Source: a virus
Length of the DNA stretch: 64,000 nucleotides
Reading direction: 5' to 3' (one strand)
IMG/VR virus record: IMGVR_UViG_3300016665_000824
Span: 32,001-96,000 of that record
This document shows positions 4,473-62,011 of this stretch, one piece after another. Within the stretch, counting starts at the first letter, position 1. The number at the start of each line of letters is the position of its first letter. The translations under genes and the position numbers were made by a program. Under the pieces are notes generated by a model. It did no database searches. It was given only the letters and a program-made list of their open reading frames with translations, and was not told where the DNA came from.

Positions 4473-4715
4473 TTAGGAAGCCTTGAGACCCTCCAATACG
4501 ATCTGAGATTCTTCGAGCATCTGACGATCGCCTGTTCGCTGGCAGATATAAAAATAGCTGTCAGCATCATAATCATATAAACGCCGCTTGATCGTATAAG
4601 ACTTATTGGCGTACAAAATCCTTGTTCCTAGTTGGTATTTGGGAATTCCAATCGCGTAGCTTGCACTTTTTGCTGTCATATTGTGTTCGTGGGGATATCG
4701 CCACAAATCTACCAC
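4473..4715 (-). CDS. Small hypothetical protein (GTG start, or ATG at 4679)
   Basis: 80-aa ORF; start overlaps CCACAAA operator-like element. Confidence 0.3.
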   Translation of the reverse strand: MVDLWRYPHEHNMTAKSASYAIGIPKYQLGTRILYANKSYTIKRRLYDYDADSYFYICQRTGDRQMLEESQIVLEGLKAS

Positions 4716-4718
4716 AAA
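4699..4718 (+). promoter_or_regulatory. Operator-like direct repeat CGCCACAAATCTACCACAAA
   Basis: Two CCACAAA half-sites 11 bp apart, ~68 nt upstream of 4788 ATG; 19/20 identical to 27933-27952. Confidence 0.5.
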
Positions 4719-4787
4719 AATAGGTTAAAATAATTTATTCGCCGCAGCGTTGTAGCGCTCGGCGTGTGAATCACCAACCATAACTTA

Positions 4788-5321
4788 GTGACTACACATA
4801 TGATACGAGCAATTCGTGCAATCGTCGAGCTTGATGATTTTTCTTTCGATGCGTACCAAATGCCAGACGGTGAAAAGCGCATTGGGTTTTTGGGAGCTTC
4901 CAACGTTTTAGGCTATGCTGACAACTGGTTGGGCAGGTTACATAAAGGCGATTCTCGGCAGCTAAAGGCTATACAGGGTATGGGTTATAGCGGCTTACAA
5001 ACCGAGGTCGAAATCATTCAACGGGGTAGGGAGATTAGCGCCTACGGGACTCGTGCAAATACTATCTCTCTTCGGGATTTTATTAAACTTGTAACTTATG
5101 AGGCTATCAAGAAAACAAATACCCGCGCAATTACTATTCTTGCCTCAATGGCTGAGTTTGGTTTTGAGCAAGTCATTGACATGGCTTTTGCTGGCAACCC
5201 AATGGATGAAATCCTTTCAAAGATCGTTCACTTTAGTCTATGGACTCAAGAAGAATGGGAGCAAGCTTTGGCGGATAACAGGGAAGACTTAGCTAATTTG
5301 CGACTTGGGATGTGGCGATAA
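4788..5321 (+). CDS. Accessory (moron-like) protein, unknown function
   Basis: 177-aa ORF on opposite strand between structural genes; preceded by CCACAAA direct-repeat element; convergent with giant ORF. Confidence 0.55.
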   Translation: MTTHMIRAIRAIVELDDFSFDAYQMPDGEKRIGFLGASNVLGYADNWLGRLHKGDSRQLKAIQGMGYSGLQTEVEIIQRGREISAYGTRANTISLRDFIKLVTYEAIKKTNTRAITILASMAEFGFEQVIDMAFAGNPMDEILSKIVHFSLWTQEEWEQALADNREDLANLRLGMWR

Positions 5322-5352
5322 GGTAACAAGGACTTGAGTCCTTGTTACCTTA
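5319..5352. terminator. Strong hairpin (15-bp stem, 4-nt loop) spanning the stop codons of two convergent genes
   Basis: TAAGGTAACAAGGAC-TTGA-GTCCTTGTTACCTTA; no flanking U-tract. Confidence 0.45.
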
Positions 5353-8300
5353 CTCCGCTAGTAACACCCGCTACTCGTCTCAAGACATTATTAAGCGTGT
5401 CATTAACAGCCTTCTGGACATCATTGCCCACACCCGCCGCAGAACTAATGTTGCTTTGAGTATTGATAGCGATCGGGGCATTAACCGTAATATTTCCACT
5501 TGTACCCAGAGCCGCACCCGTAGGATTGCCCTGTTGCTGAGGAACAAGATCTTTACCGCCAAGACTACCGAAAGCCTGCGCCAATGCCTCCGCTCTTTGA
5601 AGTTGTCCTTCGTCAAGCAAGGCGATCGGCTTGTCGAGTTTCTTCTGGGCTTCCTCAAATGCCTTGTCGTCGATCTTCAATGTCACGGGGTTCTCGGAGA
5701 TTTGCTTCGACACACGGTTAAATTCCGCTTCCAGTCCTGCGGTTAAATCTTTAACCTTGAGATCTGGGGCAACCAACACCTTGGAGAAGCCTTCATCGAT
5801 TTGCTGAGTTAACTTGTCGAACGAAGACGCGATCGCCTGTTCTGGCTTTGCTTCCTCCGTAGGTTTGCCACCGTACTTAGCGTTAAGCTCCTCAAACGAG
5901 TTGGCTTGAGCAGGATACTTCTTGTTAAGCTCCTCAAAGCTGCCTGCCATGCCCTTGTCGGGATATTTCTTGGCTAACTCCTCAAAGCTAGTAGCGAACG
6001 GTGCGTTATCAGGCTTTGGTTCGGGTGCAGCCGTAAATACTCCGCCCTGCTCAACCTGCCCAAGCAATGCCGAGGTGGGGTTCTTAAACGAAGCACCGCG
6101 AACATTAACAGGTTGGCTTGCCGCAGCCACAGCATTACTTACATCCGTGGTAGTCAATGCTGCTGTACCCGTATTTTGAGTTAAGCGAGCAAGCTGCTCT
6201 CGTTGTAGGCGCTCTTGCAGCGCAGGATCTCTAGTTGCGCCAATAACATCGCCGATCGCCGTATTAGTTTCGCCTTGCTGTTTATTGGCAAGAGCTTGAC
6301 GATCATTCTTGTTGACAATCTCGTTAACCTTGGCTTCGTCGGCAATGAAACCCTTTTCTTGCTGCAATCCACCCAATTCAAGAAAGTTCTTCTCCTGTCC
6401 AAGCTTGGCTTGAGCAAGTTTAAGCTTCGCCTCTTCGGACTGGGGACGTAGTTTAACCTCCAACTCGGCGGCTTTGATAGCAGCATCCTGTGAGGCAATG
6501 TCCACCTTCTTCTTGGCGATCGCGATTTCATTTTCGACCTTCTTGCGTTCAAGCAATAGGTCACGCTTCTGGATTTCCCGCTCCAAGGACTCGGCTTCAA
6601 ACTTTTGCTGTTGCTTGAGGGAATTAAGCTTAAGAACGGCAAGTTTTTCCGCAAGAATCAGCTTTTTCTCTTCGAGTTCGAGATCGGCAAAGTTGCCCTG
6701 ACCACCTGCGGCACGGATGGCAGCTTGTTGGCGATCGTAGATCTTGTTGAGAGCAGCAAACTCTGACTCGCGTAATGCCACTGTAGACTGGGCAAGTTTA
6801 TTTGCCGACTCGGATAGGCGGCTTTGATTCTCAAGCCCCTTTTCTAGTGCGGTGAATAATAGTTTTTGACGTTCAAGCTTGAGGTTTTGCTGCTCAATCG
6901 TGACCGCATACTTTTGTGATTCCAAGACTAGGCGATCGCGCACTGCGGAAACTAATCCTTCAATCGCCGCGAGTTCGGCTTCAGCGAGCTGTTTGGATAG
7001 TTCAGCAACCTTGATTAGATTAGCGTTCTTAGTTTCCTTGCTAACACCAACGCCCTTCTTCTCAAGATCGGCGATCGCCTTCTGCTTTTGTTGTTCGAGT
7101 TGCAGCTCTAAAGTGATACTGCGTTTACGTTCGGCAGTTTCTTGAAGCTTAATTTCAGATTCAAGCTTAATTCCCGACTTGCGGAGTTGAGCTATCTGAG
7201 CAAGACGCTGAGTCTCGCCAACCTTTTCGGCGGCAAGGGTCTCCTTAATCTGTGCATCCAATCCCTTAACAAAGCGCTCGGAACGGGCTTTGGCTATTTT
7301 TGCCTCAGCGTCCTTCCGTTTGTTGTCGGCATCCTCTTCTAATCGCGCTTTCTGGGCGGCGGTAGCCTTAACTAGATCAAGCTCTTTTTTGTTTGCGTCA
7401 GCAATAGAGTTTTTCGCCAAGTTTTGACGTTCGGCATCTGGCTTTGCGATTGAGGAAAGTTGATCCCTCTTTGTCTGCAACGTCCGAAGTTCAGACTCTT
7501 TCTTGGCGATCGCGTCCTGTTCCGCCTTGATCTGTGCGGTGTACTCCGAGGAATTAAAAAATGGCGCGTCTTTTACGGTGTTGAATCGCTGTAATGTCTC
7601 CGCATTCCCAGCTTTCAGACTAGACAAGGCTTTTTCCCCATCTTCAATCTGCTTCGTAATTCCCTCTAGCTGTCCCTGAGTATCCTCTGACAACTTTAAG
7701 GTGCTATCCAAGGTTCCTTTCTGGCTCTGGAGGCTATTAAGTCTTGATTGCAACACAGCAAGCTCGTCCGTTACTTTCTTAACGTCCTCGGCAGCGTTAT
7801 CTCCCGCAACACCCGTACTTATAGACTCTTGGAGAGCCTTCTTCCTTGCCTCTGCATCTTTGATCTGTTGACTGGTATCGTCGATCTTTCCTTGCAAGAC
7901 AGGAGCTTGAGCTTCCCTGACCTGCCGTATCTTTGAAGGATCTCCAGTTGCAGCAGCTAACTGCGCTTCCGCCAACTCGCGATCGCGCTTAATCTGTTGT
8001 TTCTGCTCATTAGCGTTGGTCTCCAAGATCTGCTGTCTTGCTCTTAGAGCCTTTTGATCGGCTTCAGACTGGGCTTGAATCTTCTTCTCCTCTAATTGTC
8101 CAGAGAGGGCGATCGATTCAGACTCAGAGATTCGCCCCGTGGCGAGCAAAGCTTGAATCTGGGAAAGTTGAGCGTCATAAATAGCTATGCGGCGATCCGC
8201 CTCCTTTTTGTACGCGGCAGTAATCGCTTCTTGAGCCTTTATCTGTAAATCGCGATCGGCAGAGACATTCGTAGCTACTTTTTGAAACGCTCCCGCAACT

Positions 8301-11300
8301 TCGTCTGCACGGAGAATCCCTGCATCTTGAAGGGCGTTAGCCGTTTCAAGCAACTCGCCCAACTTCGCCTTAAATAGCGCAGGATCTCCCGCAGACTTGT
8401 TTAAAGCGTCAAGGGCTGCATTATATTTTGAAGTTGCCTGCTCGATCGCATTACCAATACGAGGAAGATCAATAGCCTGAATTTGCAGGTTTACCGACTT
8501 GTAGGATTCTTGAAGTTTTCTAAGGGCTTCAAGTTCTCGATCTCTTTCTGCGTCTAAACCTTCTACAGCTTGAACCTGATTAATGATTGCCTCGATATTG
8601 TTGTTTCTTTCGGCGATCTCCTTCTTCTTATTCTCGATCTGAATATCAAAACGCGCAGCACCATCTTTGTCGCTTAGCGCTTCCGCCTTGGACTTTTCCT
8701 GCTCTAATTTAATTAAATCCTCTTGGAGTTTCTTCTGAGCAGACAGTCCTATTCCTAGATCAACCCGCCGAGAAGCTGACTGATTTAAGACGTTTTTATT
8801 ATCTTGCAATCTTATTTGGACGGCTTTCTCTTCAAGATTTCCTGCGCGATCGCCTAGACCTAACTTGTCGGAAGCGCCAAACGTTACCGTTCTTAGCCCC
8901 TCTCTTGCCGCGTCACCTGTAAGAGCAAAACCTTCTGTAACGCGAGTACCAATATTGTCTCTCTCTTTTTTAACCTTCTCCCTCAACGCGTCTTCGGAGT
9001 TGGTTGGTTTGCTTTGTAATCCCCTCAACTCTTTGAGTTTTGCGAGCTGTTGATCATACAGCTTTAAAGTGGGGTCATCTTGGAGGATGCTCTTGTCTTG
9101 GATTGAGGCAACATATTTTTCGCGTTCTGAGGTTAGGTTTGCTAGCTCAGAAGCGGCATCCTTTCCTTGCGATTTGTTTAGGATCGCAACCCTTGCGTCA
9201 CTATCTTTGAGCGCATCGTTGAGTTTGTCTACATTGGCTGTAGCTGCTTTTGTTTCCTGATCGACGTAGCCAACCAAGGTTGTTATTGCGGCGAAAGCTG
9301 CGCTTAACAATAATGTAGGACCAATTTCTGCGGCGAGGGCGGCGAAGGATTTGCTGATACCTTTGACATTCTCGGAAATAAACGAGGTAGCGCCTACAGC
9401 ACCCTTTTTGAGGTTTGAATAAAGTCCACCGACACTAACGTTCGCGTTTTGAGTGAAATCAGCAAAGCTAGACTTAGCTCGCGAGCCAAAATCTTTGACA
9501 CCAGAAAGAGCATCTTGGAAACCTGTCTTTAACCCAGCACCTAAATTTTTGAGGCTTAAATCGGGGAGAGAAATAGACTTGACTTGATTGACAAACTTAT
9601 CTATAGCGATACGAGAATTAGCCAAAGAAGCGGGAATATTTAGCTCTCTAAAGAACTTATCGAGTCCCAGTCTCGCGTTTGCAAGAGAGGTAGGGACGTT
9701 GATCTGGGAAAATGCTTTTTCAACCCCGTTGCGGAGGTTTACCAGCGAGGCAGGAATGTTGATATTTGCAAAGGCGTTCCGAATGCTAGCTTTAGTATTC
9801 TCAATTTGCGCGGGGAGATTTGCAAAGATACCAGTTTTTTGACTCGAATCCTGACTGAACCTTCCCTTAATGTCAGATATAAAACTACCAATAGAGTCGC
9901 CCAAGGACTTCAAAGAAGTTTTTGTCTTTGTGGCGATCGCTCCAATATCTTCTGCGAACTGTTTTGTGAACGGGACGGGAATTGGATTGGCAATAATCTG
10001 ACTTCGGAGCGACTTGATTCTGTCGGTAGTCTCCTGATAACTTTTAAGAGCCGCCGCACGAGCTTCGGGGGTTAACGACAGATCTGTAGAGTCTTTTTGG
10101 CTCACGATCGCCTGCTGTTTTAGTCCAGAGACCTCTCGTTTAGCGGCGACAACCTGAGTAGGATTTAGAGTCGTTGACTGAACTGGCTTGCCCCCAAGTA
10201 TTTCTCGAACACTATCGTTTAGCTTCTTGATGCGCCCAAAGGTTTCGCCAATACTGGCTCCAGCACCGCTAATTCCCGTGTTAATTGTCTTAAATACATT
10301 GGAGATTGTGCCACCAAACAGCTTGGTAACAGCGATCGCGATTAGCAATCCGCCAACTACTTTTTGAAAAGGATTGGAGTTCTCGCCAAAAGTAAAGAAC
10401 GGCAATATCGTGTCTGCAACCACCTTAATTACTGGTGCTAATACCGACCCTACCGTATCCGCAAACTTACGAATAGCTGCGGTTACATCCTGAATGATTT
10501 TTTGTAGACCTTTGTTCTTCAGGATTAACTGATCGAAGAAGACAAAACCAACAAATGTTCCAGCACCCAACAAGGCTGTTGATACGGCAAAAGACCTTGC
10601 CGCAGCTCCTGCCGCTTTTAATGAATTAGAGAAGATGCTGTTTACTTTCTCGGTATTTGTAGCGACATCGGCAAACTTGCCCAAGCTCTTGGCTGCGTCC
10701 GCAATCAACGGGCTAAACGAGCCAAATAGTTGGGACTTACCAACAATGCCTGAGAAAGCTGTTAAGGCGATCGGCGCTGCCTTCGTAAATCCTTGCAGTG
10801 CGGTTCCTAGCGCAGGAAATGCTTGAGTAAGTCCAATCAGTTTTACCCCAAAGCCACCTAGTGTTGGCAAAGCGGCAGTTATAACTCCCGCGAATGGCGA
10901 GAACGCACCGAGAACTTTGCCCAACTCTTTTTGGACTAAGCCAGCAGCACCAGGGATCTTGTTTAGATTCTCCGCCAACAACAGGAATCCAGCAGACCCT
11001 CGACCGACAACCGAACTTAAATTAGCAAAAGTGTTGACAACCCCGTTAGTACGCTTGTCAAGCAGGAAGAGAACTTCTCCCAAACCTGGTACAAGATTAA
11101 ACATCAACGAGAAGCCTTTGTTTAATGCCCCGATCGCGCCCGAAAGAACTTTTGCGCCGACGGAGATGCCGATCCAAATCCCTCCAAGAGGACCTACAAC
11201 ACCTGCAATTTGTTCAAACACATTAATAGCTGGCTGAACAACAGCAAGAGTAAGGCTCATCGCATCGGAAAAAGCCTTTACTGCGCCAGCGAGAGACTTG

Positions 11301-13780
11301 AATAGGTATTCTGGAACCTGCCCAAAGATCTGGAAGAATGGCCCCGCGAGACTTTTTAGGGTCGCAATCACGTTCTTGAATACGTCAAACAGTATTCCTG
11401 CGAGACTCCCTACTTGAGCAGCGATCGCGTCTTTATTCTTTGAGAAATACTGGTAAAACCCGTCAAGTTCCGCTACTAAAGGTGCGAGGAATTTCTCCCC
11501 AGCGAGTCTGCCGATCTCATCAACTAGCTCTTGAATATTGCTAACAATCCCACCCACGGACTGAGCAGCTAGCTTGTTTCCAGACTTAAATGCTTCTAAT
11601 CGACCTAAAAGCTCTTTGACGAAGGTTCCTTGAGACTTCCACTTAGCCACCATCTCATTGTTGAGGTTAAGCGATTTGGCAAGAGCTGAGTTTTGGTCAA
11701 TAGTTCCCGAAGTTATACTAACAACCTCTTGACGGGCTTGATATAAAGGTATGCCAAGCGTTCCGAGTGCGGCGGCGAACGAGGTTGTAATATTAGCAGC
11801 GTCATTCAAGGACGCGCCAATGTTGCTTGCCTGCCCAGCAACGATCTGAAAAACCCCGACAAGATCTTTACTGGTTACGCCGACCAGCTCTAACGAGTCT
11901 TTACGAATTTTATCGATCGCCCCTTCAACCGCAGGGCCAACCGCCTTGATCGCTTGAGTTGGATCTGATACGCGATCGCCATTAACTACGATTCTATTGG
12001 TTGCCGCTAAGCTCGCCTGAGTAGAGAGTAGTTGCTCTTGGAGCCTGATGTTTTGCCCAATCAACAGATCGAAAGGGCCGTTTTGTACAAATCCTTGGAG
12101 TGCCTGCAATCCCAATCCCAAGAAAGCAAGTCTCTGAGATACTTCAAAGATCGCGTTGGTTGCCTTGCCAGCACCTTCGCTAATTAGATTGAATACTTCT
12201 AGTGGTTCCGTCGCCCCCGCCACTGGAGCAACCACTGCGGCGGCAATATCTACAGGTTCTTGCAGCTTCGGGGCTATCTCTTGAGTCTTTTGAAACCCCT
12301 TAACGATAACATCATCAACACTATCGATGACAGTACCGACTTCGGCAAGGATTGTTGATCTCAGTCCATCAACAAAATTCTTACCTGCGATCGCGCCAGT
12401 ATCTTTTAAAAGCGAACTAAATGTTCCGCCAAAAAACTCGTCAATCTTGGTTGCAAGTTTTTGCAGTGAGCCATCCCCGCTTCCGATAGAATCAATCGCC
12501 GCGCCCAACCCTCCGTCAATAGCATCGACAGCTTTTAGGGCTAAATTCCTGAGAGGCGCAAGGATGCTAGTATCTTCTACGCTAAACAAGCTATTGAGAG
12601 CCTGTCCAACGCCTCCCTTTTGAGTCTCTATTAAAGGGCGGAGGATGGCAAAAGCGGATCTTAAATCCTCTGGAATTGCTTTTTCTAGTCCATTAAATAA
12701 CTGTCCAGACAACGCATTTCCAAAATCTTGCAACTCATTAGAGGCAACAATCGACCCCAAATTTGCCACCCCGATCTTGTTGGCAATCAGTTTTGCTAGT
12801 GGTGGTAGTGGCAACTTATCTACAAGCTGAGGGATTCGCCCCGCTAGGCGGTTGATCAGCTCAGATACAGAGCCGCCTAACTGTTCGTCAAGAATTTTAA
12901 ATTGATCGGTCGCCTCAGATCTGCTGCCGACGATTGCCCTGCCGACCGATCCTCCTAAAGCGCTAGATAAGCGCCCTACAACTCTTTGTCCGTCCTCAAC
13001 GTTTGGCGCGATTGCGTTAACGGCAAAAGCTTTAGCAGCACCCGATACCGACCCACCAGCCAACTGCTTCGACACTTCCGACAGCAATCCAGTTTTTGCC
13101 GCAGTCCGAAATGAGTTGGCGACAATTGAGGTTAAATCCGCCCCGAAAGCTTGGTTAACAATACCTTTTAAAGCGTCGGGGAGTCCTCCCCCAACAACGC
13201 CCGAAATGAGTGAGTCGGCGATCGCGTTATCTAGCGTTCCAGTAAAAGCCTCAACTCCCACTCCAAGCTTGCGCTGAATTTCTTGATTTAGCTTTGAAGC
13301 CCTAACATTTGCTTCTAACGCTTTACCGAAACTGTTTGCAGAATCGCTAAGTATCTGCGTAATTCTCTTGCCGTTATCCGAAAATATTGCAGACTGAGCT
13401 TGCTCTGCCGACTGCTTAGATAAGAATCCTCCTCCGACATCTTTTCCTGCAGAGGTAATCCCCTTGATTACCTTTGAGAGCGGAGCTAGTTTTGAAACTG
13501 CACTGTCGGCGACATTCGAGATCTGTTCTAAAAATATTTTGCCCGACTGCGTATCTAGTACATCTCGAACCGACTGAATTGCGTCTCTCAGCCCTCCAAA
13601 CGTGCCAATCGCGGTTGCCCCTACCGTGCTGATCGTTCCGCCAAGGGCTTGTACAGATCCCTTTGTTACGTCCGCAACAACACCAACACTTTTTAGACCA
13701 GCAGCTATCTCCGAAACTTGTTTGCTTGCTTGATCTTTCGCCTGTATTAAGATCTCAACAATATTGGTTTGCGGAGCCAT
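5345..13780 (-). CDS. Giant virion protein, tape-measure-like (tail length tape measure or ejection/internal virion protein)
   Basis: Uninterrupted 2811-aa ORF; Gly/Ala/Ser-rich hydrophobic N-terminal third, long E/K/Q/A/L-rich coiled-coil centre, internal tandem repeats, position between head and tail-fiber genes. Confidence 0.6.
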   Translation of the reverse strand: MAPQTNIVEILIQAKDQASKQVSEIAAGLKSVGVVADVTKGSVQALGGTISTVGATAIGTFGGLRDAIQSVRDVLDTQSGKIFLEQISNVADSAVSKLAPLSKVIKGITSAGKDVGGGFLSKQSAEQAQSAIFSDNGKRITQILSDSANSFGKALEANVRASKLNQEIQRKLGVGVEAFTGTLDNAIADSLISGVVGGGLPDALKGIVNQAFGADLTSIVANSFRTAAKTGLLSEVSKQLAGGSVSGAAKAFAVNAIAPNVEDGQRVVGRLSSALGGSVGRAIVGSRSEATDQFKILDEQLGGSVSELINRLAGRIPQLVDKLPLPPLAKLIANKIGVANLGSIVASNELQDFGNALSGQLFNGLEKAIPEDLRSAFAILRPLIETQKGGVGQALNSLFSVEDTSILAPLRNLALKAVDAIDGGLGAAIDSIGSGDGSLQKLATKIDEFFGGTFSSLLKDTGAIAGKNFVDGLRSTILAEVGTVIDSVDDVIVKGFQKTQEIAPKLQEPVDIAAAVVAPVAGATEPLEVFNLISEGAGKATNAIFEVSQRLAFLGLGLQALQGFVQNGPFDLLIGQNIRLQEQLLSTQASLAATNRIVVNGDRVSDPTQAIKAVGPAVEGAIDKIRKDSLELVGVTSKDLVGVFQIVAGQASNIGASLNDAANITTSFAAALGTLGIPLYQARQEVVSITSGTIDQNSALAKSLNLNNEMVAKWKSQGTFVKELLGRLEAFKSGNKLAAQSVGGIVSNIQELVDEIGRLAGEKFLAPLVAELDGFYQYFSKNKDAIAAQVGSLAGILFDVFKNVIATLKSLAGPFFQIFGQVPEYLFKSLAGAVKAFSDAMSLTLAVVQPAINVFEQIAGVVGPLGGIWIGISVGAKVLSGAIGALNKGFSLMFNLVPGLGEVLFLLDKRTNGVVNTFANLSSVVGRGSAGFLLLAENLNKIPGAAGLVQKELGKVLGAFSPFAGVITAALPTLGGFGVKLIGLTQAFPALGTALQGFTKAAPIALTAFSGIVGKSQLFGSFSPLIADAAKSLGKFADVATNTEKVNSIFSNSLKAAGAAARSFAVSTALLGAGTFVGFVFFDQLILKNKGLQKIIQDVTAAIRKFADTVGSVLAPVIKVVADTILPFFTFGENSNPFQKVVGGLLIAIAVTKLFGGTISNVFKTINTGISGAGASIGETFGRIKKLNDSVREILGGKPVQSTTLNPTQVVAAKREVSGLKQQAIVSQKDSTDLSLTPEARAAALKSYQETTDRIKSLRSQIIANPIPVPFTKQFAEDIGAIATKTKTSLKSLGDSIGSFISDIKGRFSQDSSQKTGIFANLPAQIENTKASIRNAFANINIPASLVNLRNGVEKAFSQINVPTSLANARLGLDKFFRELNIPASLANSRIAIDKFVNQVKSISLPDLSLKNLGAGLKTGFQDALSGVKDFGSRAKSSFADFTQNANVSVGGLYSNLKKGAVGATSFISENVKGISKSFAALAAEIGPTLLLSAAFAAITTLVGYVDQETKAATANVDKLNDALKDSDARVAILNKSQGKDAASELANLTSEREKYVASIQDKSILQDDPTLKLYDQQLAKLKELRGLQSKPTNSEDALREKVKKERDNIGTRVTEGFALTGDAAREGLRTVTFGASDKLGLGDRAGNLEEKAVQIRLQDNKNVLNQSASRRVDLGIGLSAQKKLQEDLIKLEQEKSKAEALSDKDGAARFDIQIENKKKEIAERNNNIEAIINQVQAVEGLDAERDRELEALRKLQESYKSVNLQIQAIDLPRIGNAIEQATSKYNAALDALNKSAGDPALFKAKLGELLETANALQDAGILRADEVAGAFQKVATNVSADRDLQIKAQEAITAAYKKEADRRIAIYDAQLSQIQALLATGRISESESIALSGQLEEKKIQAQSEADQKALRARQQILETNANEQKQQIKRDRELAEAQLAAATGDPSKIRQVREAQAPVLQGKIDDTSQQIKDAEARKKALQESISTGVAGDNAAEDVKKVTDELAVLQSRLNSLQSQKGTLDSTLKLSEDTQGQLEGITKQIEDGEKALSSLKAGNAETLQRFNTVKDAPFFNSSEYTAQIKAEQDAIAKKESELRTLQTKRDQLSSIAKPDAERQNLAKNSIADANKKELDLVKATAAQKARLEEDADNKRKDAEAKIAKARSERFVKGLDAQIKETLAAEKVGETQRLAQIAQLRKSGIKLESEIKLQETAERKRSITLELQLEQQKQKAIADLEKKGVGVSKETKNANLIKVAELSKQLAEAELAAIEGLVSAVRDRLVLESQKYAVTIEQQNLKLERQKLLFTALEKGLENQSRLSESANKLAQSTVALRESEFAALNKIYDRQQAAIRAAGGQGNFADLELEEKKLILAEKLAVLKLNSLKQQQKFEAESLEREIQKRDLLLERKKVENEIAIAKKKVDIASQDAAIKAAELEVKLRPQSEEAKLKLAQAKLGQEKNFLELGGLQQEKGFIADEAKVNEIVNKNDRQALANKQQGETNTAIGDVIGATRDPALQERLQREQLARLTQNTGTAALTTTDVSNAVAAASQPVNVRGASFKNPTSALLGQVEQGGVFTAAPEPKPDNAPFATSFEELAKKYPDKGMAGSFEELNKKYPAQANSFEELNAKYGGKPTEEAKPEQAIASSFDKLTQQIDEGFSKVLVAPDLKVKDLTAGLEAEFNRVSKQISENPVTLKIDDKAFEEAQKKLDKPIALLDEGQLQRAEALAQAFGSLGGKDLVPQQQGNPTGAALGTSGNITVNAPIAINTQSNISSAAGVGNDVQKAVNDTLNNVLRRVAGVTSGVR
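5872..6000 (-). repeat. Three imperfect tandem ~42-48-bp repeats near the 3' end of the giant ORF
   Basis: Encodes SFEELAKKYP / SFEELNKKYP / SFEELNAKYG. Confidence 0.65.
9581..9820 (-). repeat. Four tandem 60-bp (20-aa) repeats inside the giant ORF
   Basis: Encodes NIPASLVNLRNGVEKAFSQI / NVPTSLANARLGLDKFFREL / NIPASLANSRIAIDKFVNQV / NLPAQIENTKASIRNAFANI. Confidence 0.7.
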
Positions 13781-25440: not shown

Positions 25441-25450
25441 TGGACTCCTC

Positions 25451-27932: not shown

Positions 27933-27952
27933 CGCCACAAATCCACCACAAA
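27933..27952 (+). promoter_or_regulatory. Operator-like direct repeat CGCCACAAATCCACCACAAA
   Basis: Same element ~38 nt upstream of 27991 ATG. Confidence 0.5.
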
Positions 27953-27990
27953 GCCACGTTTCAATGCGAAAATCCGAGTAGAGTTACCAG

Positions 27991-28554
27991 TTGAATATGG
28001 CAGTAAAAAGTAAAGTCAAGCTCGGCGCGTATATCGGGCGAAGGCTGGAGCAGGAACGTACCGATGCCGATTACGGTCAGCAAGAAGTCATTAATGAGAT
28101 CCACAGAATAACGTCATCCCCAGAAGTTATTGCTGCGCTAGAGATATCTGTCGCCGCAAACCTAACCAAGTTTCGAGAGTTTCGAGGCAAACGCCAGAAA
28201 GATTTAGCCGCAGATCTAAACAACTTGCGCGATACCTTGCATGGCGTAGGTATAGATACTGAAGTGTCTGGCGATGTGTCTTGGATGTCTAAGGTTGAGA
28301 ATAGCGATCGCATCATGCAGGCGGTCGAACTACGACTCTTTAGCCTTGCTTTGGGTGTTCCGATGGAGGCATTTTTCCCTAATGAGTTAAACGTACTAGC
28401 AGAAAGTAATGACCCGTTCGCCCCTTACCGATATCTGGGACGCAGTATCGAGGGTATTCAAAAGTATCGACATGTCAGCGATCGCAACAAAATTGCGATC
28501 GTTTATTGTTCAGAAGGGTTGTCTTTACCTGATGGTGTGGGGAAATATCTATGA
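27991..28554 (+). CDS. Hypothetical protein, first gene of accessory island
   Basis: 187-aa ORF; CCACAAA direct-repeat element ~40 nt upstream; ATGA overlap with next gene. Confidence 0.5.
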   Translation: MNMAVKSKVKLGAYIGRRLEQERTDADYGQQEVINEIHRITSSPEVIAALEISVAANLTKFREFRGKRQKDLAADLNNLRDTLHGVGIDTEVSGDVSWMSKVENSDRIMQAVELRLFSLALGVPMEAFFPNELNVLAESNDPFAPYRYLGRSIEGIQKYRHVSDRNKIAIVYCSEGLSLPDGVGKYL

Positions 28555-28784
28555 GTGTTTATTCAAGCCCCGAATTCACTGGTACAATCATTCGAGAAAG
28601 CCATGAGAGTGGCGTTTTGCTAGTCACGGTCGTAGAGTTACCAGGGCTAGTCTTAGTGCTCAACTCCCATAGCGAAGAAGAAATCGTATTGCCCCAAGCT
28701 ATTAGATCGTATCTAAGTCTTGAGGAGCAATTGAAGATTAAGCGATCGCGACCCAAAGTCACAGCAGTAAAAATATCCATCTAA
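28551..28784 (+). CDS. Small protein with HicB-like (UPF0150-type) features
   Basis: 77 aa; VTVVELPGLV resembles the PELPGC motif of HicB-type antitoxins (from memory). Confidence 0.35.
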   Translation: MSVYSSPEFTGTIIRESHESGVLLVTVVELPGLVLVLNSHSEEEIVLPQAIRSYLSLEEQLKIKRSRPKVTAVKISI

Positions 28785-28812: not shown

Positions 28813-30786
28813 ATGTCCTATGAAGCCCTGCCGTCGGGAAGCTTAGTCAAAGCTCCCATCGATCTGATCGAAACTCATCCACAGAACCCCGCCCCTACAT
28901 CACAGAGGTATAGCGAAATATTGGGGTATCCCGTCAGGGTTGAGGATGCTCAGGTCGAGTCCCTGATTGAACTACTAAGGGCGGAGGGCTACAACCCCAA
29001 TAAGCCTATGCTGCTCAGACCAGTTGGCGATCGCCTCCAAGCCGTTGAGGGCAACCACCGTTTTGTGGCAATGTGGATGCTCACCAAGGTACTCAGAGAG
29101 TTTGAACAGGACTATATTCCCGCGATCGTGGATGAAGATCTATCCGAAGAGGACGCTCTGATTAAGTTGAGTACTCTTAATACTCAGCGCAGGATGGAGG
29201 GTTGGCGGTTAGCTCGATTGGCTTACTACACTTGCGTTGAGAAAGGCATGTCTCAGCCTGAGTATGCGGCAAAGGTGGGATACGTCCTTGAGGGTGGAAA
29301 GCCAAATGGTCCACGGATTTCTAAGTTGATTCAAGCCTGTCGATTTGTTGACTATATTGCTGCCAACTCACCGATTGAAGAACTGCAAGACGTTGAGGCT
29401 TTAACCGAACCTAAGAACGGTTTGTTTAGGTCAGTTGATCGCGTCGTTGAGTTTATGTACCTCGACCAAGAGGACTGGTTATGGATTGCAGAGTTCTACC
29501 TCCGTCATCACATGCAGATCTCGGCAAAACAACGAGTCAACCTAGCCAAGGCGATCAAAGATACAAAGGATTTGCTCAACAGATCTACCTCGTATCCCGA
29601 TCGCTGGAGTCAATGGTTGCGCTGGGAGTATATACGCGGAGAGGTCGCTAGTCAGTGTGCGGCAAACGAGGAGTCCCAATTAGCCAAGAGTTTATTACCC
29701 CAACTAATTTCTGAGGCGAATAAAACCTACGAGTCGGACGACTTGCCATTCATTCACAACTATCACGAAGTTACTGGTAACAGGGTTGAAGAGAAAACTG
29801 CCAATCTCAAGGAGGAATTTCGTGCTGAGTTAATCAAGCAGATCGAAGGGCGTAGTGCCAAGTTTTACAGGCTTGTTGATGTTGCTGAAGCTGCGCGGAC
29901 TGTGATCGATCGCTATGCGTTTATCGATCAGAAGTACGAAAACTTCAAAAAGATCGAAAACACGGTACATATCGAGCAAGAGATTGTTGCGATCGCACCT
30001 CCGACGACCTCAAAGTCAAAATCTACGCCAACAACATCTACGCGATCGCCTGTTGCAGAAACAAAGCCCAAGCTTGATACCGAAAAGCGAGTGTGGATTG
30101 AGGAACAATATCAGCCAAAAGGCATGGTTTCTTCTCTAGAAGATTATGCTTTCCACGGCGGCAAACAGTACGGGCTGATATTCTCCCGTCTTGGCAATAG
30201 CGGCATGGAGGACTTCTTTCAAAATACCGACTATATCTATAGAACGCTTACCGAAGATGGAGTATTCGCACTGATATTGCCGCATAAATATTCCTTCGCG
30301 GTAATTGAGGAGCTTGAGTATAAGGTAGCTAACTCTAGTCGCTTACACCTTCGAGGGTTGGATGGCGGCATATATTCCGATGATGAAAAGCCGAGATTGG
30401 CGATCGCCGCATCAAACCGTACATTGATTCATCAAGAGTACGAAGAATTATTATTGTTCACCACTCAAGACGATACTCCTCTGCCATTGCGATCGCCTCT
30501 CCCTCGGATGGCGCTGGAGCCAGTTCACGATATTCTGACCGCTTTTGGCGACCTGAGCGAGCCGTTCTTAGATCCGTTCGCCTTCAGTGGTGAGGTCGTA
30601 GTCGCAGCAAAAAGTCTTGGGTATCGGTGCGACTATCTCGTACAGACTCCAAACCAGTTGGACTTGGTTACGCGCTGGTGCGATCGGACTGAGTTTCCTG
30701 AGAGTCTACTTAGATTTGCGGAAGAGTTTACTCATTTTGATGAGGCACTGTTTAGTGATCGAGCAACTACTCGTGCAAGATCCTGA
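28813..30786 (+). CDS. ParB-like nuclease domain protein with degenerate methyltransferase-like C-terminus
   Basis: 657 aa; N-terminal LLRPVGDRLQAVEGNHRFVAMW fits ParB/Srx fold; C-terminal LDPFAFSGEVVVAAKSLGYRCDYL aligns to MTase motif I (DPFxGSGTT) with glycines replaced; no DPPY motif. Confidence 0.55.
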   Translation: MSYEALPSGSLVKAPIDLIETHPQNPAPTSQRYSEILGYPVRVEDAQVESLIELLRAEGYNPNKPMLLRPVGDRLQAVEGNHRFVAMWMLTKVLREFEQDYIPAIVDEDLSEEDALIKLSTLNTQRRMEGWRLARLAYYTCVEKGMSQPEYAAKVGYVLEGGKPNGPRISKLIQACRFVDYIAANSPIEELQDVEALTEPKNGLFRSVDRVVEFMYLDQEDWLWIAEFYLRHHMQISAKQRVNLAKAIKDTKDLLNRSTSYPDRWSQWLRWEYIRGEVASQCAANEESQLAKSLLPQLISEANKTYESDDLPFIHNYHEVTGNRVEEKTANLKEEFRAELIKQIEGRSAKFYRLVDVAEAARTVIDRYAFIDQKYENFKKIENTVHIEQEIVAIAPPTTSKSKSTPTTSTRSPVAETKPKLDTEKRVWIEEQYQPKGMVSSLEDYAFHGGKQYGLIFSRLGNSGMEDFFQNTDYIYRTLTEDGVFALILPHKYSFAVIEELEYKVANSSRLHLRGLDGGIYSDDEKPRLAIAASNRTLIHQEYEELLLFTTQDDTPLPLRSPLPRMALEPVHDILTAFGDLSEPFLDPFAFSGEVVVAAKSLGYRCDYLVQTPNQLDLVTRWCDRTEFPESLLRFAEEFTHFDEALFSDRATTRARS

Positions 30787-30822: not shown

Positions 30823-30863
30823 GCAATAAAAAAGGAGTCCAATTGAGACTCCTTTTTTATTGC
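30823..30863. terminator. Bidirectional intrinsic terminator
   Basis: 17-bp perfect stem GCAATAAAAAAGGAGTC / GACTCCTTTTTTATTGC with 7-nt loop, A/T tracts on both sides, between convergent genes. Confidence 0.7.
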
Positions 30864-30869
30864 TGTAGT

Positions 30870-31595
30870 TTAATCAAAGAATTTTCTAACCGCCGCTTCT
30901 ACATCCTTGTTTGGCATCGGGTAGCACCAAATCGGCATCATCCGACCATTGCAAATCCTTTCTTCTTGTTTGCCAAGAGCCTCGCAAGTAGCTTTGACAA
31001 ATTTTCCTAATGTGGTGCGGTTTTTAGCTGTTACGGGCAAACTCAAAGATTCAGCAATTTCTACGGCTCCCATCCACTTTGTCTCCGAGGCTGGAGCGAT
31101 CGCCTTGATAACAGCCATTGCGTCGTTGATCGCAACATCTACAAGCATTTGACATAAGCGAGGGTCGGAATCAGCAAGCATATCCTTGATCTCAAAGACT
31201 GACTTCGCTGTTTCGAGTGCTATTACACGAGAGGGCAATGCGGGAACAGGAGTGGGGGTAGTAGGCACTGATTGTAACAATGCCTTCGCCTTAGAGAAGG
31301 CTTCAACCAGATCGAGCTTGCTCTGAACAACGGCTACCGTGTTTCGGCTCAGGGTCATTAAAGCGGTCGCTTGGTCTTCGTTGAGTAGCGCAAATTTAGG
31401 AGGGTTCCCTGTCGCCTTTTCGGGGACTCCGATTTTAAATCGGATACCCGCGAACCTTGCTTCAATCATGTCTTGGTACTTCTTGATGTTCCGCATAAAG
31501 CTCTCGTGATCAATCCCAAGTCGCTCGGCAATCAGTCGAGAGTCAACAAGCAATTCGCCATCTTCATTGATGATTGGTACAATACTTTCGGACAT
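30870..31595 (-). CDS. Rha-family phage regulatory protein
   Basis: 241 aa; N-terminal LLVDSRLIAERLGIDHESFMRNIKKY matches Rha domain pattern. Confidence 0.6.
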   Translation of the reverse strand: MSESIVPIINEDGELLVDSRLIAERLGIDHESFMRNIKKYQDMIEARFAGIRFKIGVPEKATGNPPKFALLNEDQATALMTLSRNTVAVVQSKLDLVEAFSKAKALLQSVPTTPTPVPALPSRVIALETAKSVFEIKDMLADSDPRLCQMLVDVAINDAMAVIKAIAPASETKWMGAVEIAESLSLPVTAKNRTTLGKFVKATCEALGKQEERICNGRMMPIWCYPMPNKDVEAAVRKFFD

Positions 31596-31678
31596 ATAAT
31601 CTACCTTTTCTAGGTTATGTGTTACGCGATCGCACCTTCAAAAACTTGCGATCGCTATCCTTAATATTATACCTTGAT

Positions 31679-31697
31679 CTTGTGGCGATTTTGTGGG
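31679..31697 (-). promoter_or_regulatory. Operator-like CCACAAA-N4-CCACAAG dyad, inverted orientation
   Basis: Reverse complement reads CCCACAAAATCGCCACAAG; between Rha gene start and 31727 ATG. Confidence 0.4.
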
Positions 31698-31726
31698 AGT
31701 ATTAATAAACGTCACAGGAATTTTTT

Positions 31727-32686
31727 ATGTCTGAATACTATTTATACGGCGATCGCGAAGGTAATGCTCTTGATCGGTTAAAAGCTTCTCGCCCTCAGCT
31801 AATCAATAAGCTTTACTACTGGGCTGGCAAACGGCTTGACTATCGGGTTAAGCATTCGCTTATGGCGGAGCAGGATGTTTCCAAGCAGGTTGATCGATAT
31901 CTAGAGGCGATTGCATTTGCTTCGTCGGAAAAGGATCTGCTAAACACGCTCAACAGTTGGAACCTCCTGTCACCTCAAGAGAAGGCGATTATGGCAAAGC
32001 TGTTCCCCTTCAAACCAAATCATCGGTTTGATCCTACAAATTTACAGTTTGAAGGATGGTTTACTGGGTGTAATTGGTACGAATTGAGAAAGGGCGAGTA
32101 CATCACCGCAGAAGAGGAAGTTCTTGACGGCATTGCCTATCAAGGACAGGAAGTAGCGATCATCACAAAGAATGCTTACGAGGCAGAAGTTTTGAACGCC
32201 AAGAATATGATGATTGTTGACGTGGATCTTGAGGGTGATCAGGCGATCGTGCAGAATGCTCAGTTCGCTCTTGACGTACTTCGATCTTTTATTAGCAACA
32301 CAAAAAATTGGGATCTAGGCTTTAGGGTTTACAAAACTGCGGCAGGTTTGAGATATATCTGCACGACCCATGAATTTGAAGCGACAGATCCTCTTAGCGA
32401 CAAGATTATGCGTAATTTACTCGCTGATGATCGCTACCGAGCTTTGTGTAAATTCCAAGATACCTATCGCGCTCGATTAACTCCAAAACCTTGGCGAGCT
32501 TCTGACATTGCGTGGCGTAATCGCGGAGTGTGGGATGTTTCAGGCGAATGGGTGGAATATTTCAGGGTGTGTGACTCGCTTAGCCTCTACGGAAATACTA
32601 ATATCCTTCCCCAGTTCGCCAAGGCGATCGAATACCATGATCGAATCACAAATGTCTTTGCCGATCCAAAACTAATCCTCGCGTAG
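31727..32686 (+). CDS. Hypothetical protein
   Basis: 319-aa ORF; inverted CCACAAA dyad ~30 nt upstream. Confidence 0.5.
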   Translation: MSEYYLYGDREGNALDRLKASRPQLINKLYYWAGKRLDYRVKHSLMAEQDVSKQVDRYLEAIAFASSEKDLLNTLNSWNLLSPQEKAIMAKLFPFKPNHRFDPTNLQFEGWFTGCNWYELRKGEYITAEEEVLDGIAYQGQEVAIITKNAYEAEVLNAKNMMIVDVDLEGDQAIVQNAQFALDVLRSFISNTKNWDLGFRVYKTAAGLRYICTTHEFEATDPLSDKIMRNLLADDRYRALCKFQDTYRARLTPKPWRASDIAWRNRGVWDVSGEWVEYFRVCDSLSLYGNTNILPQFAKAIEYHDRITNVFADPKLILA

Positions 32687-55882: not shown

Positions 55883-56027
55883 TAGACCTCTCAGATAGGT
55901 TTGTTTGGTTAGAGGTGATTGCTTGTTGAGAGCAGGCGATCGCCTCGATAGAAATATTATTGCAGAAGTATTGCCAAAACGTCAACTATTGTTTTACACT
56001 TAGAGCATATTAATTCGGTGTAGCGAT

Positions 56028-61986: not shown

Positions 61987-62011
61987 GGTATTTAGTTTCA
62001 GGTAAAACAAT

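What the first reader, a model, noticed from the sequence alone, without database searches (positions are those of the whole stretch)
4699..4718. Conserved CCACAAA direct-repeat element upstream of plus-strand accessory genes
CGCCACAAATC[TC]ACCACAAA occurs at 4699-4718 and 27933-27952 (19 of 20 identical, half-sites one helical turn apart), and inverted at 31679-31697. Each lies 30-70 nt upstream of a plus-strand accessory gene (4788, 27991, 31727). This looks like a shared operator or promoter element defining a small regulon of accessory genes.
Basis: seen in the sequence. Interest (0 to 1): 0.65.

Follow-up and report, generated by a model that had tools for sequence, protein, structure and literature searches.

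The report
Shared operator-like repeat in a cyanophage
A short tandem DNA repeat (CCACAAA, four bases, CCACAA) sits on the core promoters of three small regulatory-gene cassettes in an uncultured cyanophage; it is conserved in related phages and is most likely the binding site of a phage-encoded regulator, which makes it a real but ordinary kind of phage control element.

Summary
CCACAAA-N4-CCACAA occurs three times (4701-4717 +, 27935-27951 +, 31680-31696 -) against 0.07 expected, and all three copies lie in the 7% of the window that is intergenic.

The window is an uncultured, HIP1-rich cyanophage. Each copy heads a self-contained cassette inside the minus-strand structural gene cluster:
- gp4800
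- an operon of an XRE-like gene, a 77-aa gene and a ParB-like gene
- a Rha-type antirepressor-like gene

At sites 1 and 3 the repeat lies exactly 8 bp upstream of a near-consensus -10 hexamer, and no -35 hexamer is present. Site 2 is ambiguous.

Thirteen orthologous versions from related contigs keep the half-sites while spacers and flanks drift (4/39 versus 22/42 variable columns, p = 4e-5).

Site 3 is on the minus strand. It travels with the Rha/Bro gene in some relatives and with the 319-aa plus-strand gene in others, so it acts in both directions. Homologues of gp4800 in other phage lineages lack the repeat.

Best reading: an operator for a lineage-specific regulator encoded in the site-2 operon. 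An activator box with lambda CII or PhoB geometry is the main rival. No protein binding was tested.

The interest is moderate. This is a new member of a known kind.

The parts
4701..4717 (+). Site 1: CCACAAA-TCTA-CCACAA. The identity with site 2 extends to 4695-4718, 22 of 24 positions.
   Evidence: The orthologue in L112 reads CCATAAA-TCTA-CCACAA with the same 8-nt gap to TAAAAT.
4726..4731 (+). -10-like hexamer TAAAAT, 8 nt after site 1, with G at -14. No -35 hexamer lies 16-18 nt upstream.
   Evidence: The promoter scan finds no sigma-70 -35/-10 pair here.
4800..5321 (+). gp4800 (173 aa, PHROG 32599, function unknown), the cassette gene downstream of site 1.
   Evidence: Homologues occur in PaV-LD and in metagenomes. 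In relative L097 the cassette is replaced by IS200/IS605 genes.
5322..5349 (.). Perfect 12-bp hairpin GGTAACAAGGAC-TTGA-GTCCTTGTTACC at the 3' end of gp4800. It overlaps the stop codon of the tape-measure gene and has no T run.
   Evidence: Read.
27935..27951 (+). Site 2: CCACAAA-TCCA-CCACAA.
   Evidence: Conserved in 7 distinct relatives, with spacer variants TCCA, ACCG and ACTG and one C-to-T change in the proximal half-site.
27960..27973 (+). Two candidate -10 hexamers for site 2. TTCAAT (27960-27965) is 8 nt after the repeat, matches poorly and varies in relatives. GAAAAT (27968-27973) is 16 nt after the repeat and is conserved as GARAAT.
27997..28554 (+). gp27997 (185 aa), an XRE-like helix-turn-helix protein with an insertion. 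First gene after site 2 and a candidate reader of the motif.
   Evidence: HTH_31 E = 0.052, below threshold. JGI calls a homologue 'transcriptional regulator with XRE-family HTH domain'. A profile search links residues 52-131 to P0013, which has HTH_19/HTH_31 domains above threshold.
28551..28784 (+). 77-aa gene, possibly UPF0150/HicB-like.
   Evidence: The only support is a weak UPF0150 hit (E = 0.05) on the homologous ORF in L099.
28813..30786 (+). gp28813 (657 aa) with a ParB/Spo0J-like N-terminal domain and helix-turn-helix. Second candidate reader of the motif.
   Evidence: Matches Spo0J 1vz0 over residues 46-158, E = 4e-4. No Pfam or NCBIfam hit.
30828..30858 (.). Bidirectional terminator-like hairpin (A run, GGAGTC..GACTCC, T run) between the convergent site-2 operon and the Rha gene.
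   Evidence: Read.
30870..31595 (-). Rha-type antirepressor-like gene: pRha N-terminal domain plus a conserved C-terminal domain.
   Evidence: Phage_pRha E = 3e-11. PHROGs label it antirepressor or Rha-like regulator.
31666..31671 (-). Perfect TATAAT on the minus strand, 8 nt after site 3, with G at -14. Candidate Rha promoter.
   Evidence: It reads TACAAT in relatives L006, L007 and L058.
31680..31696 (-). Site 3: CCACAAA-ATCG-CCACAA, read on the minus strand.
   Evidence: Present next to Rha/Bro alone, next to the 319-aa gene alone, or next to both, in different relatives.
31700..31705 (+). TATTAA, 3 nt from the distal half-site of site 3. Candidate -10 for the plus-strand 319-aa gene, conserved in L059 and L012.
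31727..32686 (+). 319-aa gene of unknown function, 30 nt from the inverted site 3.

Best explanation
The repeat is the binding site of a sequence-specific DNA-binding protein. It lies on the core promoters of three self-contained cassettes that interrupt the late structural gene cluster of an uncultured cyanophage.

Each site has two 7-bp half-sites (CCAYAAA) in tandem, 11 bp apart, so they face the same side of the helix. If TAAAAT and TATAAT are the -10 elements, the repeat covers about -37 to -21, where a -35 hexamer would normally sit.

My preferred mechanism is negative control. A lineage-specific regulator made from the site-2 operon binds the repeats, blocks RNA polymerase at these -10-driven promoters, and so limits its own operon. 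The regulator would be the XRE-like gp27997 or, less likely, the ParB-like gp28813. Binding would also keep gp4800, the Rha/Bro antirepressor-like gene and the divergent 319-aa gene silent until the regulator is lost or inactivated.

Shown here: the motif, its positions, its orientation, its conservation and the gene contents.
Inferred: that these are promoters, that a protein binds, which protein binds, and the direction of the effect.

I put about 0.8 on 'functional regulator-binding site at promoters', and about 0.45 on 'repressor operator read by a site-2-operon protein'.
For: - Non-random and only between genes.
- The repeat sits 8 bp from TAAAAT at site 1 and 8 bp from TATAAT at site 3, in the same orientation. 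G at -14 and T at -12 are invariant across 13 orthologous sequences. No -35 hexamer is present.
- Half-site columns vary in 4 of 39 cases, against 22 of 42 for adjacent spacer and flank columns, p = 4e-5.
- Homology between relatives starts at or just upstream of the repeat.
- The cassettes have their own ends: a hairpin at 5322-5349 and a bidirectional terminator-like hairpin at 30828-30858.

Evidence for repression specifically:
- The -10 elements are near consensus.
- gp4800 homologues in other lineages are preceded by plain extended -10 sequences (TGgTAAAAT, TGgTAGAAT) with no repeat. In this lineage the repeat therefore looks like an addition to a -10-only promoter.
- Site 3 survives intact (13 of 13) in inverted orientation next to the 319-aa gene in L059, where Rha is absent and the 'forward' -10 has decayed to TAGCTC. 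Orientation-independent retention fits an operator.
- The targets include antirepressor-like genes.
- One site lies directly upstream of an XRE-like gene.

Evidence for a factor from the site-2 operon:
- The gp27997 family is tiny and confined to this lineage: 10 clusters at 78-96% identity, plus two remote members. This matches the distribution of the motif.
- A 32%-identical homologue (P0012, L099) has CTACAAA-N7-CCACAAA-N6-TTTCAATG upstream.
Against: - No binding or transcript data exist.
- At site 2 the hexamer at the 8-bp offset is poor (TTCAAT, TTCAGT, TTCGGT). The conserved GARAAT lies 8 bp further on, so the promoter geometry is not uniform.
- The strict orientation and spacing at sites 1 and 3, together with the missing -35, are equally typical of activator-dependent promoters.
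- XRE proteins usually bind inverted repeats, not direct ones.
- P0011 has the same recognition-helix sequence as P0012, yet has no such repeat upstream.
- In L099 the half-sites are 14 bp apart, not 11.
- The structure prediction of gp27997 failed (pLDDT 38).
- Only 64 kb of a genome of about 134 kb was scanned.
Confidence: 0.45

Rival explanations
1. Activator box. The tandem repeat replaces the -35 hexamer, and a bound activator recruits RNA polymerase. The geometry matches lambda CII sites (TTGC-N6-TTGC straddling -35), PhoB Pho boxes (7+4-bp units ending about 10 bp from -10) and T4 MotA boxes. The cassettes would then form a timed 'middle' or decision class of genes.
For: - No -35 hexamer at any site, whereas the phage has near-consensus TTGACA-17-TATGAT promoters elsewhere.
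- Identical orientation and an 8-bp gap to the -10 at sites 1 and 3 and their orthologues.
- The 7+4+7 layout has an 11-bp period.
- CII sites occur at several dispersed promoters and even upstream of a conversion cassette in phage epsilon34 (PMC2629481).
Against: - Activator-dependent promoters usually have weak -10 elements; here they are TATAAT and TAAAAT.
- Site 3 is retained in inverted orientation, with a decayed forward -10, in L059.
- Site 2 does not share the geometry clearly.
- No homologue of CII, MotA or a response regulator was found among the proteins scanned.
Confidence: 0.28
2. Host factor site. A cyanobacterial OmpR/PhoB-family response regulator (RpaB-like) binds the repeats, tying these phage cassettes to a host signal such as light or redox state.
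For: - Tandem 7-8-bp repeats with a 10-11-bp period at or near -35 are the signature of this family.
- The half-site shares ACAAA with the HLR1 octamer (G/T)TTACA(T/A)(T/A). RpaB represses or activates depending on position (PMC6525291).
Against: - The core is CCACA, not TTACA, in all 13 sequences. The period is 11 bp, not 10.
- A scan of 185,579 species' genomes with the motif plus TANNNT gave 33 hits, close to chance. A few are cyanobacterial, with unrelated downstream genes (ThiG, a PstS-like protein by eye, none). Many hits are simple tandem 11-mer duplications.
- gp4800 homologues in other cyanophage lineages lack the motif.
- PaV-LD has none.
Confidence: 0.1
3. Centromere-like or silencing sites for the ParB-like gp28813. 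The dispersed sites would be read by a ParB-family protein for partition or spreading-based silencing, with promoter overlap as a secondary feature.
For: - gp28813 has a Spo0J/ParB-like N-terminal domain and helix-turn-helix (E = 4e-4).
- It is encoded directly downstream of site 2.
- Dispersed ParB-type sites are known in linear plasmid-prophage N15 and in KorB regulons (my own knowledge, not checked here).
Against: - No ParA-type ATPase was seen among the proteins scanned.
- ParB helix-turn-helix proteins normally read inverted repeats.
- The fixed register with -10 hexamers, and the position of each site at a cassette head, point to promoter control.
- Nothing shows that the phage is maintained as a plasmid.
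Confidence: 0.07
4. Module-junction sequence. The repeat is mainly a short shared sequence at which cassettes are exchanged by recombination, like the promoter-stem-loop cassettes of T4-type phages. Any regulatory role would be incidental.
For: - Breakpoints of homology between relatives fall at or within a few bases of the repeat at all three sites.
- The cassettes behind it are gained, lost or replaced, for example by IS200/IS605 genes in L097.
Against: - The shared sequence is only 17-24 bp.
- Selection acts on the two half-sites and not on the spacer between them. That is the signature of protein recognition rather than of recombination homology.
- This reading is compatible with, and not an alternative to, a promoter element at a cassette boundary.
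Confidence: 0.07
5. Chance, or a recent local duplication with no function.
For: Sites 1 and 2 are nearly identical over 24 bp, which could reflect copying.
Against: - 3 hits against 0.07 expected.
- The sequence diverges immediately beyond the 24 bp.
- The half-sites are conserved in relatives that differ by 4-22% in neighbouring proteins.
Confidence: 0.03

Closest known systems
Lambda/P22 CII (C1)-dependent promoters PRE, PI and PaQ, with TTGC-N6-TTGC sites
   Same: - A tandem direct repeat with a period of about one helical turn overlaps the -35 region of promoters that lack a -35 hexamer.
- A handful of sites are dispersed in one phage genome, and they can also head accessory cassettes (PMC2629481).
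   Different: - The sequence is different and the half-sites are 7 bp, not 4 bp.
- The -10 elements here are strong.
- No CII homologue was found.
- The target genes are not cI or int.
- One site works in inverted orientation.
PhoB/OmpR-family boxes, including the cyanobacterial RpaB site HLR1
   Same: - Two tandem units of about 7-8 conserved plus 3-4 variable bases on one face of the helix, just upstream of the -10.
- Position decides whether the factor represses or activates (PMC6525291).
   Different: - The core is CCACA instead of TTACA (HLR1) or CTGTCAT (E. coli Pho box, from my own knowledge).
- The period is 11 bp instead of 10.
- No host regulon was detected.
- The motif is specific to one phage lineage.
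Phage immunity regulons with dispersed asymmetric operators: P1 C1 operators, mycobacteriophage L5/Bxb1 stoperators, and P22 Mnt/Arc control of ant
   Same: - A phage regulator reads short non-palindromic sites scattered through the genome.
- Sites occur upstream of antirepressor-type and accessory genes, and upstream of the regulator's own gene (my own knowledge of these systems).
   Different: - Only three sites in 64 kb, rather than 17-30.
- Each site is a tandem pair.
- No homology to C1, gp71, Mnt or Arc was detected.
- Lysogeny is not established for this phage.
Controller (C) proteins of restriction-modification systems and their C-boxes
   Same: A small XRE-type helix-turn-helix gene heads an operon, with its operator immediately upstream of its own gene.
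   Different: - C-boxes are inverted repeats.
- The downstream 657-aa protein is ParB-like. A methyltransferase-like C-terminus was seen by eye only, and no family search supports it.

Membership tests
Canonical sigma-70 (SigA) promoter | -10 hexamer close to TATAAT | tested here: met
   TAAAAT at 4726-4731 and TATAAT at 31671-31666. Site 2 is ambiguous: TTCAAT or GAAAAT.
Canonical sigma-70 (SigA) promoter | -35 hexamer close to TTGACA, 16-18 nt upstream of the -10 | tested here: not met
   The promoter scans list nothing at the three sites. The hexamers at that position are ACAAAT and ACAAAA.
Lambda CII-type activator site | TTGC-N6-TTGC direct repeat | tested here: not met
   The sequence is CCACAAA-N4-CCACAA.
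Lambda CII-type activator site | Direct repeats straddling the -35 region of a promoter that lacks a -35 hexamer | tested here: met
   The half-sites lie at about -37..-31 and -26..-21 relative to the inferred -10 at sites 1 and 3. The transcription start is inferred, not mapped.
Lambda CII-type activator site | A CII homologue encoded by the phage | tested here: inconclusive
   No Phage_CII hit among about 60 proteins scanned. Not every ORF was scanned, and only 64 of about 134 kb was available.
RpaB HLR1 site | Two octamers (G/T)TTACA(T/A)(T/A) separated by 2 nt (PMC6525291) | tested here: not met
   The core is CCACA in 13 of 13 sequences, and the units are 11 bp apart.
Pho box (PhoB/SphR) | Tandem 11-bp units ending about 10 bp from the -10 | tested here: met
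   7+4+6 bp, ending 8 bp from the -10 at sites 1 and 3.
Pho box (PhoB/SphR) | Pho-box sequence and phosphate-acquisition genes downstream | tested here: not met
   The sequence differs from the Pho-box consensus (recalled from my own knowledge). The downstream genes are regulators or of unknown function.
Replication iterons or DnaA boxes | A cluster of three or more repeats next to a replication gene or AT-rich region; DnaA box TTATCCACA | tested here: not met
   There are two half-sites per locus, at three loci inside the structural gene region. The best DnaA-box match is 6 of 9, by inspection.
Dispersed-operator immunity regulon (P1 C1 or L5 stoperator type) | Asymmetric sites dispersed in the genome, including one at the regulator's own gene | tested here: met
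   Three dispersed asymmetric sites, one of them directly upstream of the XRE-like gene.
Dispersed-operator immunity regulon (P1 C1 or L5 stoperator type) | The repressor binds the sites and confers immunity | not testable with these tools
   This needs EMSA or footprinting and an infection assay.
XRE-family HTH (for gp27997) | A Pfam HTH_3/HTH_31-type domain above the gathering score | tested here: inconclusive
   HTH_31 scores 14.3 bits against a cut-off of 27, E = 0.052. The family profile reaches P0013, which carries HTH_19/HTH_31 above the cut-off. The AlphaFold model is unusable.
Known RNA families | An Rfam covariance-model hit | tested here: not met
   No Rfam family reaches its gathering score and no tRNA is found in the window.

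The most novel reading that the evidence does not exclude
The repeat is the operator of a previously undescribed cyanophage decision circuit. An atypical XRE-like protein, with a long insertion in its helix-turn-helix (or its ParB-like operon partner), would read tandem rather than inverted half-sites. It would jointly gate a set of exchangeable antirepressor-type cassettes (Rha/Bro, gp4800, the 319-aa gene) embedded in the late operon of a 134-kb freshwater cyanophage. This would be one of the first defined transcriptional switches in a non-marine cyanophage, and a handle on whether such phages have a lysogenic or carrier state.
Probability: 0.25. Interest if true: 0.55.

Novelty: new member of a known kind. 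Interest (0 to 1): 0.35.

Why it matters
Very few regulatory circuits are defined in cyanophages outside the marine T4- and T7-like groups. The nearest isolated phages to this one share only about 30% identity in the portal protein.

A short, testable operator shared by an XRE-like/ParB-like operon and antirepressor-type genes gives a concrete starting point: three 40-bp probes and two candidate proteins. It would help to find out how such phages time or silence accessory genes, and whether they have an immunity or lysogeny-like state.

It also shows how gene cassettes inserted in a late operon carry a common lineage-specific control element while the genes behind it are swapped. As a class of feature it is expected, not surprising.

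Tried and rejected
1. My first scan of viral contigs used the wrong spacing (12-bp period). It gave 32 unrelated hits and serves only as a negative control.
2. The correct pattern plus TANAAT found only three close relatives. The pattern ATAY-N2-motif found no further sites in the relatives' contigs.
3. Host regulon. The genome scan gave 33 hits with heterogeneous downstream genes, and many were tandem 11-mer duplications. I rejected it as evidence for a host regulon.
4. PaV-LD, the nearest isolated phage with a gp4800 homologue, has no such repeat.
5. Rha autoregulation is unlikely, because relatives replace the pRha domain with Bro-N and keep the promoter and repeat.
6. Tandem helix-turn-helix idea. 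I looked for an internal duplication in gp27997 that would explain direct repeats. hhalign gave probability 0.3%, so I rejected it.
7. The AlphaFold2 model of gp27997 from an 11-sequence alignment is useless (pLDDT 38), so I ran no fold search.
8. The gp27997 family is absent from isolated phages, from the genome collection and from nearly all metagenome contigs.
9. gp4800 shows no similarity to Bro-N despite a resemblance by eye.
10. PADLOC, Rfam, tRNA and literature searches for the motif found nothing relevant.
11. Other intergenic regions, including the head of the plus-strand island at 37040, carry no copy.

Full report
**Observation**

- CGCCACAAATCTACCACAAA at 4699-4718.
- CGCCACAAATCCACCACAAA at 27933-27952, identical at 19 of 20 positions.
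- CCACAAAATCGCCACAA on the minus strand at 31680-31696.

In each copy the two half-sites start 11 bp apart. The pattern CCACAAA-N4-CCACAA has three exact hits against 0.07 expected, and none of 100 shuffles gave three. There is no fourth copy with one mismatch. Weaker matches are almost all inside genes. All three copies lie in the 7.2% of the window that is intergenic, P = 4e-4.

**Context**

The window is phage DNA with very dense HIP1 (GCGATCGC): 139 copies in 64 kb, at 46% G+C. That points to a cyanobacterial host.

The minus strand carries the structural genes:
- portal, 41553-43208
- minor head proteins
- neck protein
- head protease, 26337-27827
- major head protein, 24529-25728
- a 2811-aa tape-measure-like protein, 5345-13780

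The right end carries a primase, a DnaB helicase and a methyltransferase.

The overlapping part of the window is 100% identical to a 134,398-bp metagenome contig. Isolated phages are only distant relatives. The portal is about 30% identical to those of S-CBS4, vB_AphaS-CL131 and PaV-LD.

**Anatomy of the sites**

When each copy is read in its own orientation, a -10-like hexamer follows after exactly 8 nt:
- site 1: TAAAAT
- site 2: TTCAAT
- site 3: TATAAT

A hexamer matching TATAAT at 4 or more of 6 positions occurs at about 5% of intergenic positions. I chose the offset after seeing the data.

None of the sites has a -35 hexamer. The phage does have near-consensus TTGACA-17-TATGAT promoters elsewhere.

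If these hexamers are the -10 elements, the half-sites cover about -37 to -31 and -26 to -21.

Site 2 is the weak point. Its hexamer at the 8-nt offset lacks the A at -11 and drifts in relatives. A conserved GARAAT lies 8 nt further downstream.

**The units behind the sites**

Each site heads a small unit with its own ends.
- **Site 1** precedes gp4800 (PHROG 32599, function unknown). A perfect 12-bp hairpin follows the gene.
- **Site 2** precedes three genes, followed by a bidirectional terminator-like hairpin.
  - gp27997 is XRE-like. It is weak on its own (HTH_31 E = 0.052). JGI annotates a homologue as XRE-family. A profile search links it to a genuine XRE-domain protein.
  - The 77-aa gene has a very weak UPF0150/HicB-like signal.
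  - gp28813 (657 aa) matches Spo0J/ParB over its N-terminal domain and helix-turn-helix, E = 4e-4.
- **Site 3**, read on the minus strand, precedes the Rha-type gene 30870-31595 (Phage_pRha E = 3e-11; PHROGs label it antirepressor or Rha-like regulator).

**Comparative evidence**

Related contigs supply 13 distinct orthologous versions of the three sites. Protein identities to the window range from 78% to 96% for gp27997 and 78% for gp4800.

Within the orthologous sets, half-site columns vary in 4 of 39 cases. Flanking, spacer and linker columns vary in 22 of 42 cases (Fisher p = 4e-5).
- The only half-site changes are C-to-T at position 4, one A at position 1 and one G at position 6.
- The 4-nt spacer takes seven forms.
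- A G at -14 and a T at -12 are invariant.

Homology between relatives begins at or a few bases upstream of the repeat. Further upstream, the sequence is unrelated.

The cassettes themselves come and go.
- In one relative the site-1/gp4800 cassette is replaced by IS200/IS605 tnpA-tnpB genes. In another relative (L112) it is kept, with CCATAAA-TCTA-CCACAA and the same 8-nt gap to TAAAAT.
- More distant gp4800 homologues (58-67% identity) in other lineages have no repeat. They are preceded by extended -10 sequences, TGgTAAAAT or TGgTAGAAT.

**Site 3 in detail**

In L006, L007 and L058 that gene is absent. The repeat follows the neck gene directly: its stop codon overlaps the distal half-site. 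The repeat precedes TACAAT, a conserved leader and the Rha-type gene. So the repeat goes with Rha.

In L059 and L012, however, Rha is absent. The repeat stays in the same inverted orientation, 30 nt upstream of the 319-aa gene and 3 nt from a conserved TATTAA. In L059 the hexamer on the Rha side has decayed to TAGCTC. L013 lacks both genes and lacks the site.

Site 3 is therefore a bidirectional control point. Both readings are partly right.

In the relatives that keep the Rha-type gene, its N-terminal pRha domain is replaced by Bro-N (E = 3e-23). The C-terminal domain, leader and repeat are kept.

**Who binds**

Nothing here tests binding. Circumstantial evidence favours a protein from the site-2 operon.
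- Site 2 is the one site present in every relative.
- It lies directly upstream of an XRE-like gene and a ParB-like gene.
- The gp27997 family is tiny and restricted to this lineage, as is the motif.
- A 32%-identical homologue (P0012) has a related pair, CTACAAA-N7-CCACAAA, followed by the same N6-TTTCAATG upstream.

Against this:
- P0011 has the same recognition helix as P0012 and lacks the pair.
- The spacing in L099 is 14 bp.
- XRE proteins usually read inverted repeats.
- An internal duplication in gp27997 was not found, and its structure model failed.

**Repressor or activator**

For repression:
- the -10 elements are near consensus;
- in other lineages the same gene is preceded only by an extended -10 hexamer;
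- an inverted copy is retained where its forward -10 has decayed;
- the targets are antirepressor-type genes;
- one site sits at the head of the candidate regulator's own operon.

For activation:
- no -35 hexamer is present;
- orientation and spacing relative to the -10 are strict at sites 1 and 3;
- the layout matches lambda CII sites and PhoB-type boxes.

I favour repression at about 0.45 against 0.28. I put about 0.8 on the general claim that this is a functional regulator-binding site at promoters.

**Other rivals**

*Host response regulator.* The half-site shares ACAAA with the RpaB site HLR1. But HLR1 is defined as (G/T)TTACA(T/A)(T/A) with a 2-nt gap, and that definition is not met. A scan of 185,579 species' genomes gave 33 hits, close to chance. 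Their downstream genes are unrelated and many hits are simple tandem 11-mer duplications.

*ParB-type centromere.* This is conceivable because gp28813 is ParB-like. However, no ParA was seen, and the sites are in register with -10 hexamers.

*Recombination-junction role.* This fits the breakpoints between relatives. It does not explain why the half-sites are conserved while the spacer between them is not.

*RNA.* Rfam and tRNA scans are empty.

**Verdict**

The motif is real, conserved and positioned like a regulator-binding site. It defines a small, lineage-specific set of co-controlled cassettes.

The corrections concern the orientation and targets of site 3 and the likely regulator.

As a kind of feature it is familiar from lambda, P22, P1 and the mycobacteriophages. 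It is new only in its sequence, its phage group and its still-unknown binder.

Noticed in passing
window 61470-61560 and 61927-62017: An imperfect direct repeat of about 85-90 nt (the alignment's mean column identity is 84%). Each copy holds a near-consensus sigma-70 promoter (TTGACA-17-TATGAT at 61501-61529 and 61958-61986) and a conserved leader ending GTTTCAGGTAArACAAT before an ATG. Each copy also has a single inverted CCAYAAA half-site about 18 nt upstream of the -35 (TTTGTGG at 61934-61940). This is probably a duplicated early promoter module.
   Followed up: partly
window 30870-31595 versus L007 5701-6399: The antirepressor-like gene keeps its C-terminal 133 residues (91% identity), its leader and its promoter. 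Its N-terminal DNA-binding-type domain is pRha in the window and Bro-N in relatives, a clean domain swap.
   Followed up: yes
L097 (IMGVR_UViG_3300005805_000129), reverse-complement coordinates 5624-7954: The slot between the tape-measure gene and the next gene holds the site-1/gp4800 cassette in the window. In this relative it holds an IS200/IS605-type tnpA (133 aa) and tnpB (403 aa) plus a 125-aa ORF. TnpB-like genes also sit near gp4800 homologues in L113 and L116.
   Followed up: partly
window 28813-30786: The 657-aa protein has a Spo0J/ParB-like N-terminal domain and helix-turn-helix: PLLVRP..GERRYRA in Spo0J aligns with PMLLRP..GNHRFVA here (E = 4e-4). No Pfam or NCBIfam model hits it. 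By eye the C-terminus looks like a degenerate DNA methyltransferase motif (LDPFAFSGE), but no search supports that.
   Followed up: partly
window 31626-31655 (minus-strand leader of Rha) and L115 about 2935-2975: The leader carries two HIP1 octamers 14 nt apart that can pair as a hairpin, followed by GTAACACA. It is shared by the Rha leader here, the Bro-type gene leader in L007, and the leader of a gp4800 homologue in an unrelated contig (L115). It may be a mobile leader module.
   Followed up: no
window 4739-4799 versus L112: The roughly 60-nt leader of gp4800 is 100% identical between the two phages. The promoter just upstream has about 10 substitutions and the proteins are 78% identical. 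The leader contains a GC-rich imperfect palindrome, CGCCGCAGCG..CGCTCGGCG.
   Followed up: no
L099 about 85-185: Between the repeat-like element and the gp27997 homologue lie two copies of a roughly 30-nt direct repeat (GAAACCCGAA[TG/GC]CG?CTAGC..AA.AA). This looks like an inserted small repeat element.
   Followed up: no
L087 and L091 (cyanobacterial MAG contigs): An identical 26-nt stretch, AATTGATTGCCACAAAATTGCCACAA, occurs in two contigs whose flanks are unrelated. It is a tandem 11-mer. In L087 it ends 9 nt before the thiG start codon. It may be a dispersed short repeat of some cyanobacteria.
   Followed up: partly
window 1-64000 versus contig ena:ERZ27292652:k141_20893: The window matches the 134,398-bp contig perfectly where they overlap. 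Given its orientation, it would run off the contig's end after about 18.5 kb. The window's source must therefore be a circular permutation or another assembly of the same genome, which suggests a circular or terminally redundant genome of about 134 kb.
   Followed up: no
window 56028-56261: A 77-aa Cro/CI-type XRE protein (HTH_3 E = 1.5e-6) lies in a divergent early-looking region, next to promoter-like sites at 55956-56000. No CCACAAA repeat is nearby. This is a second, conventional regulator.
   Followed up: partly
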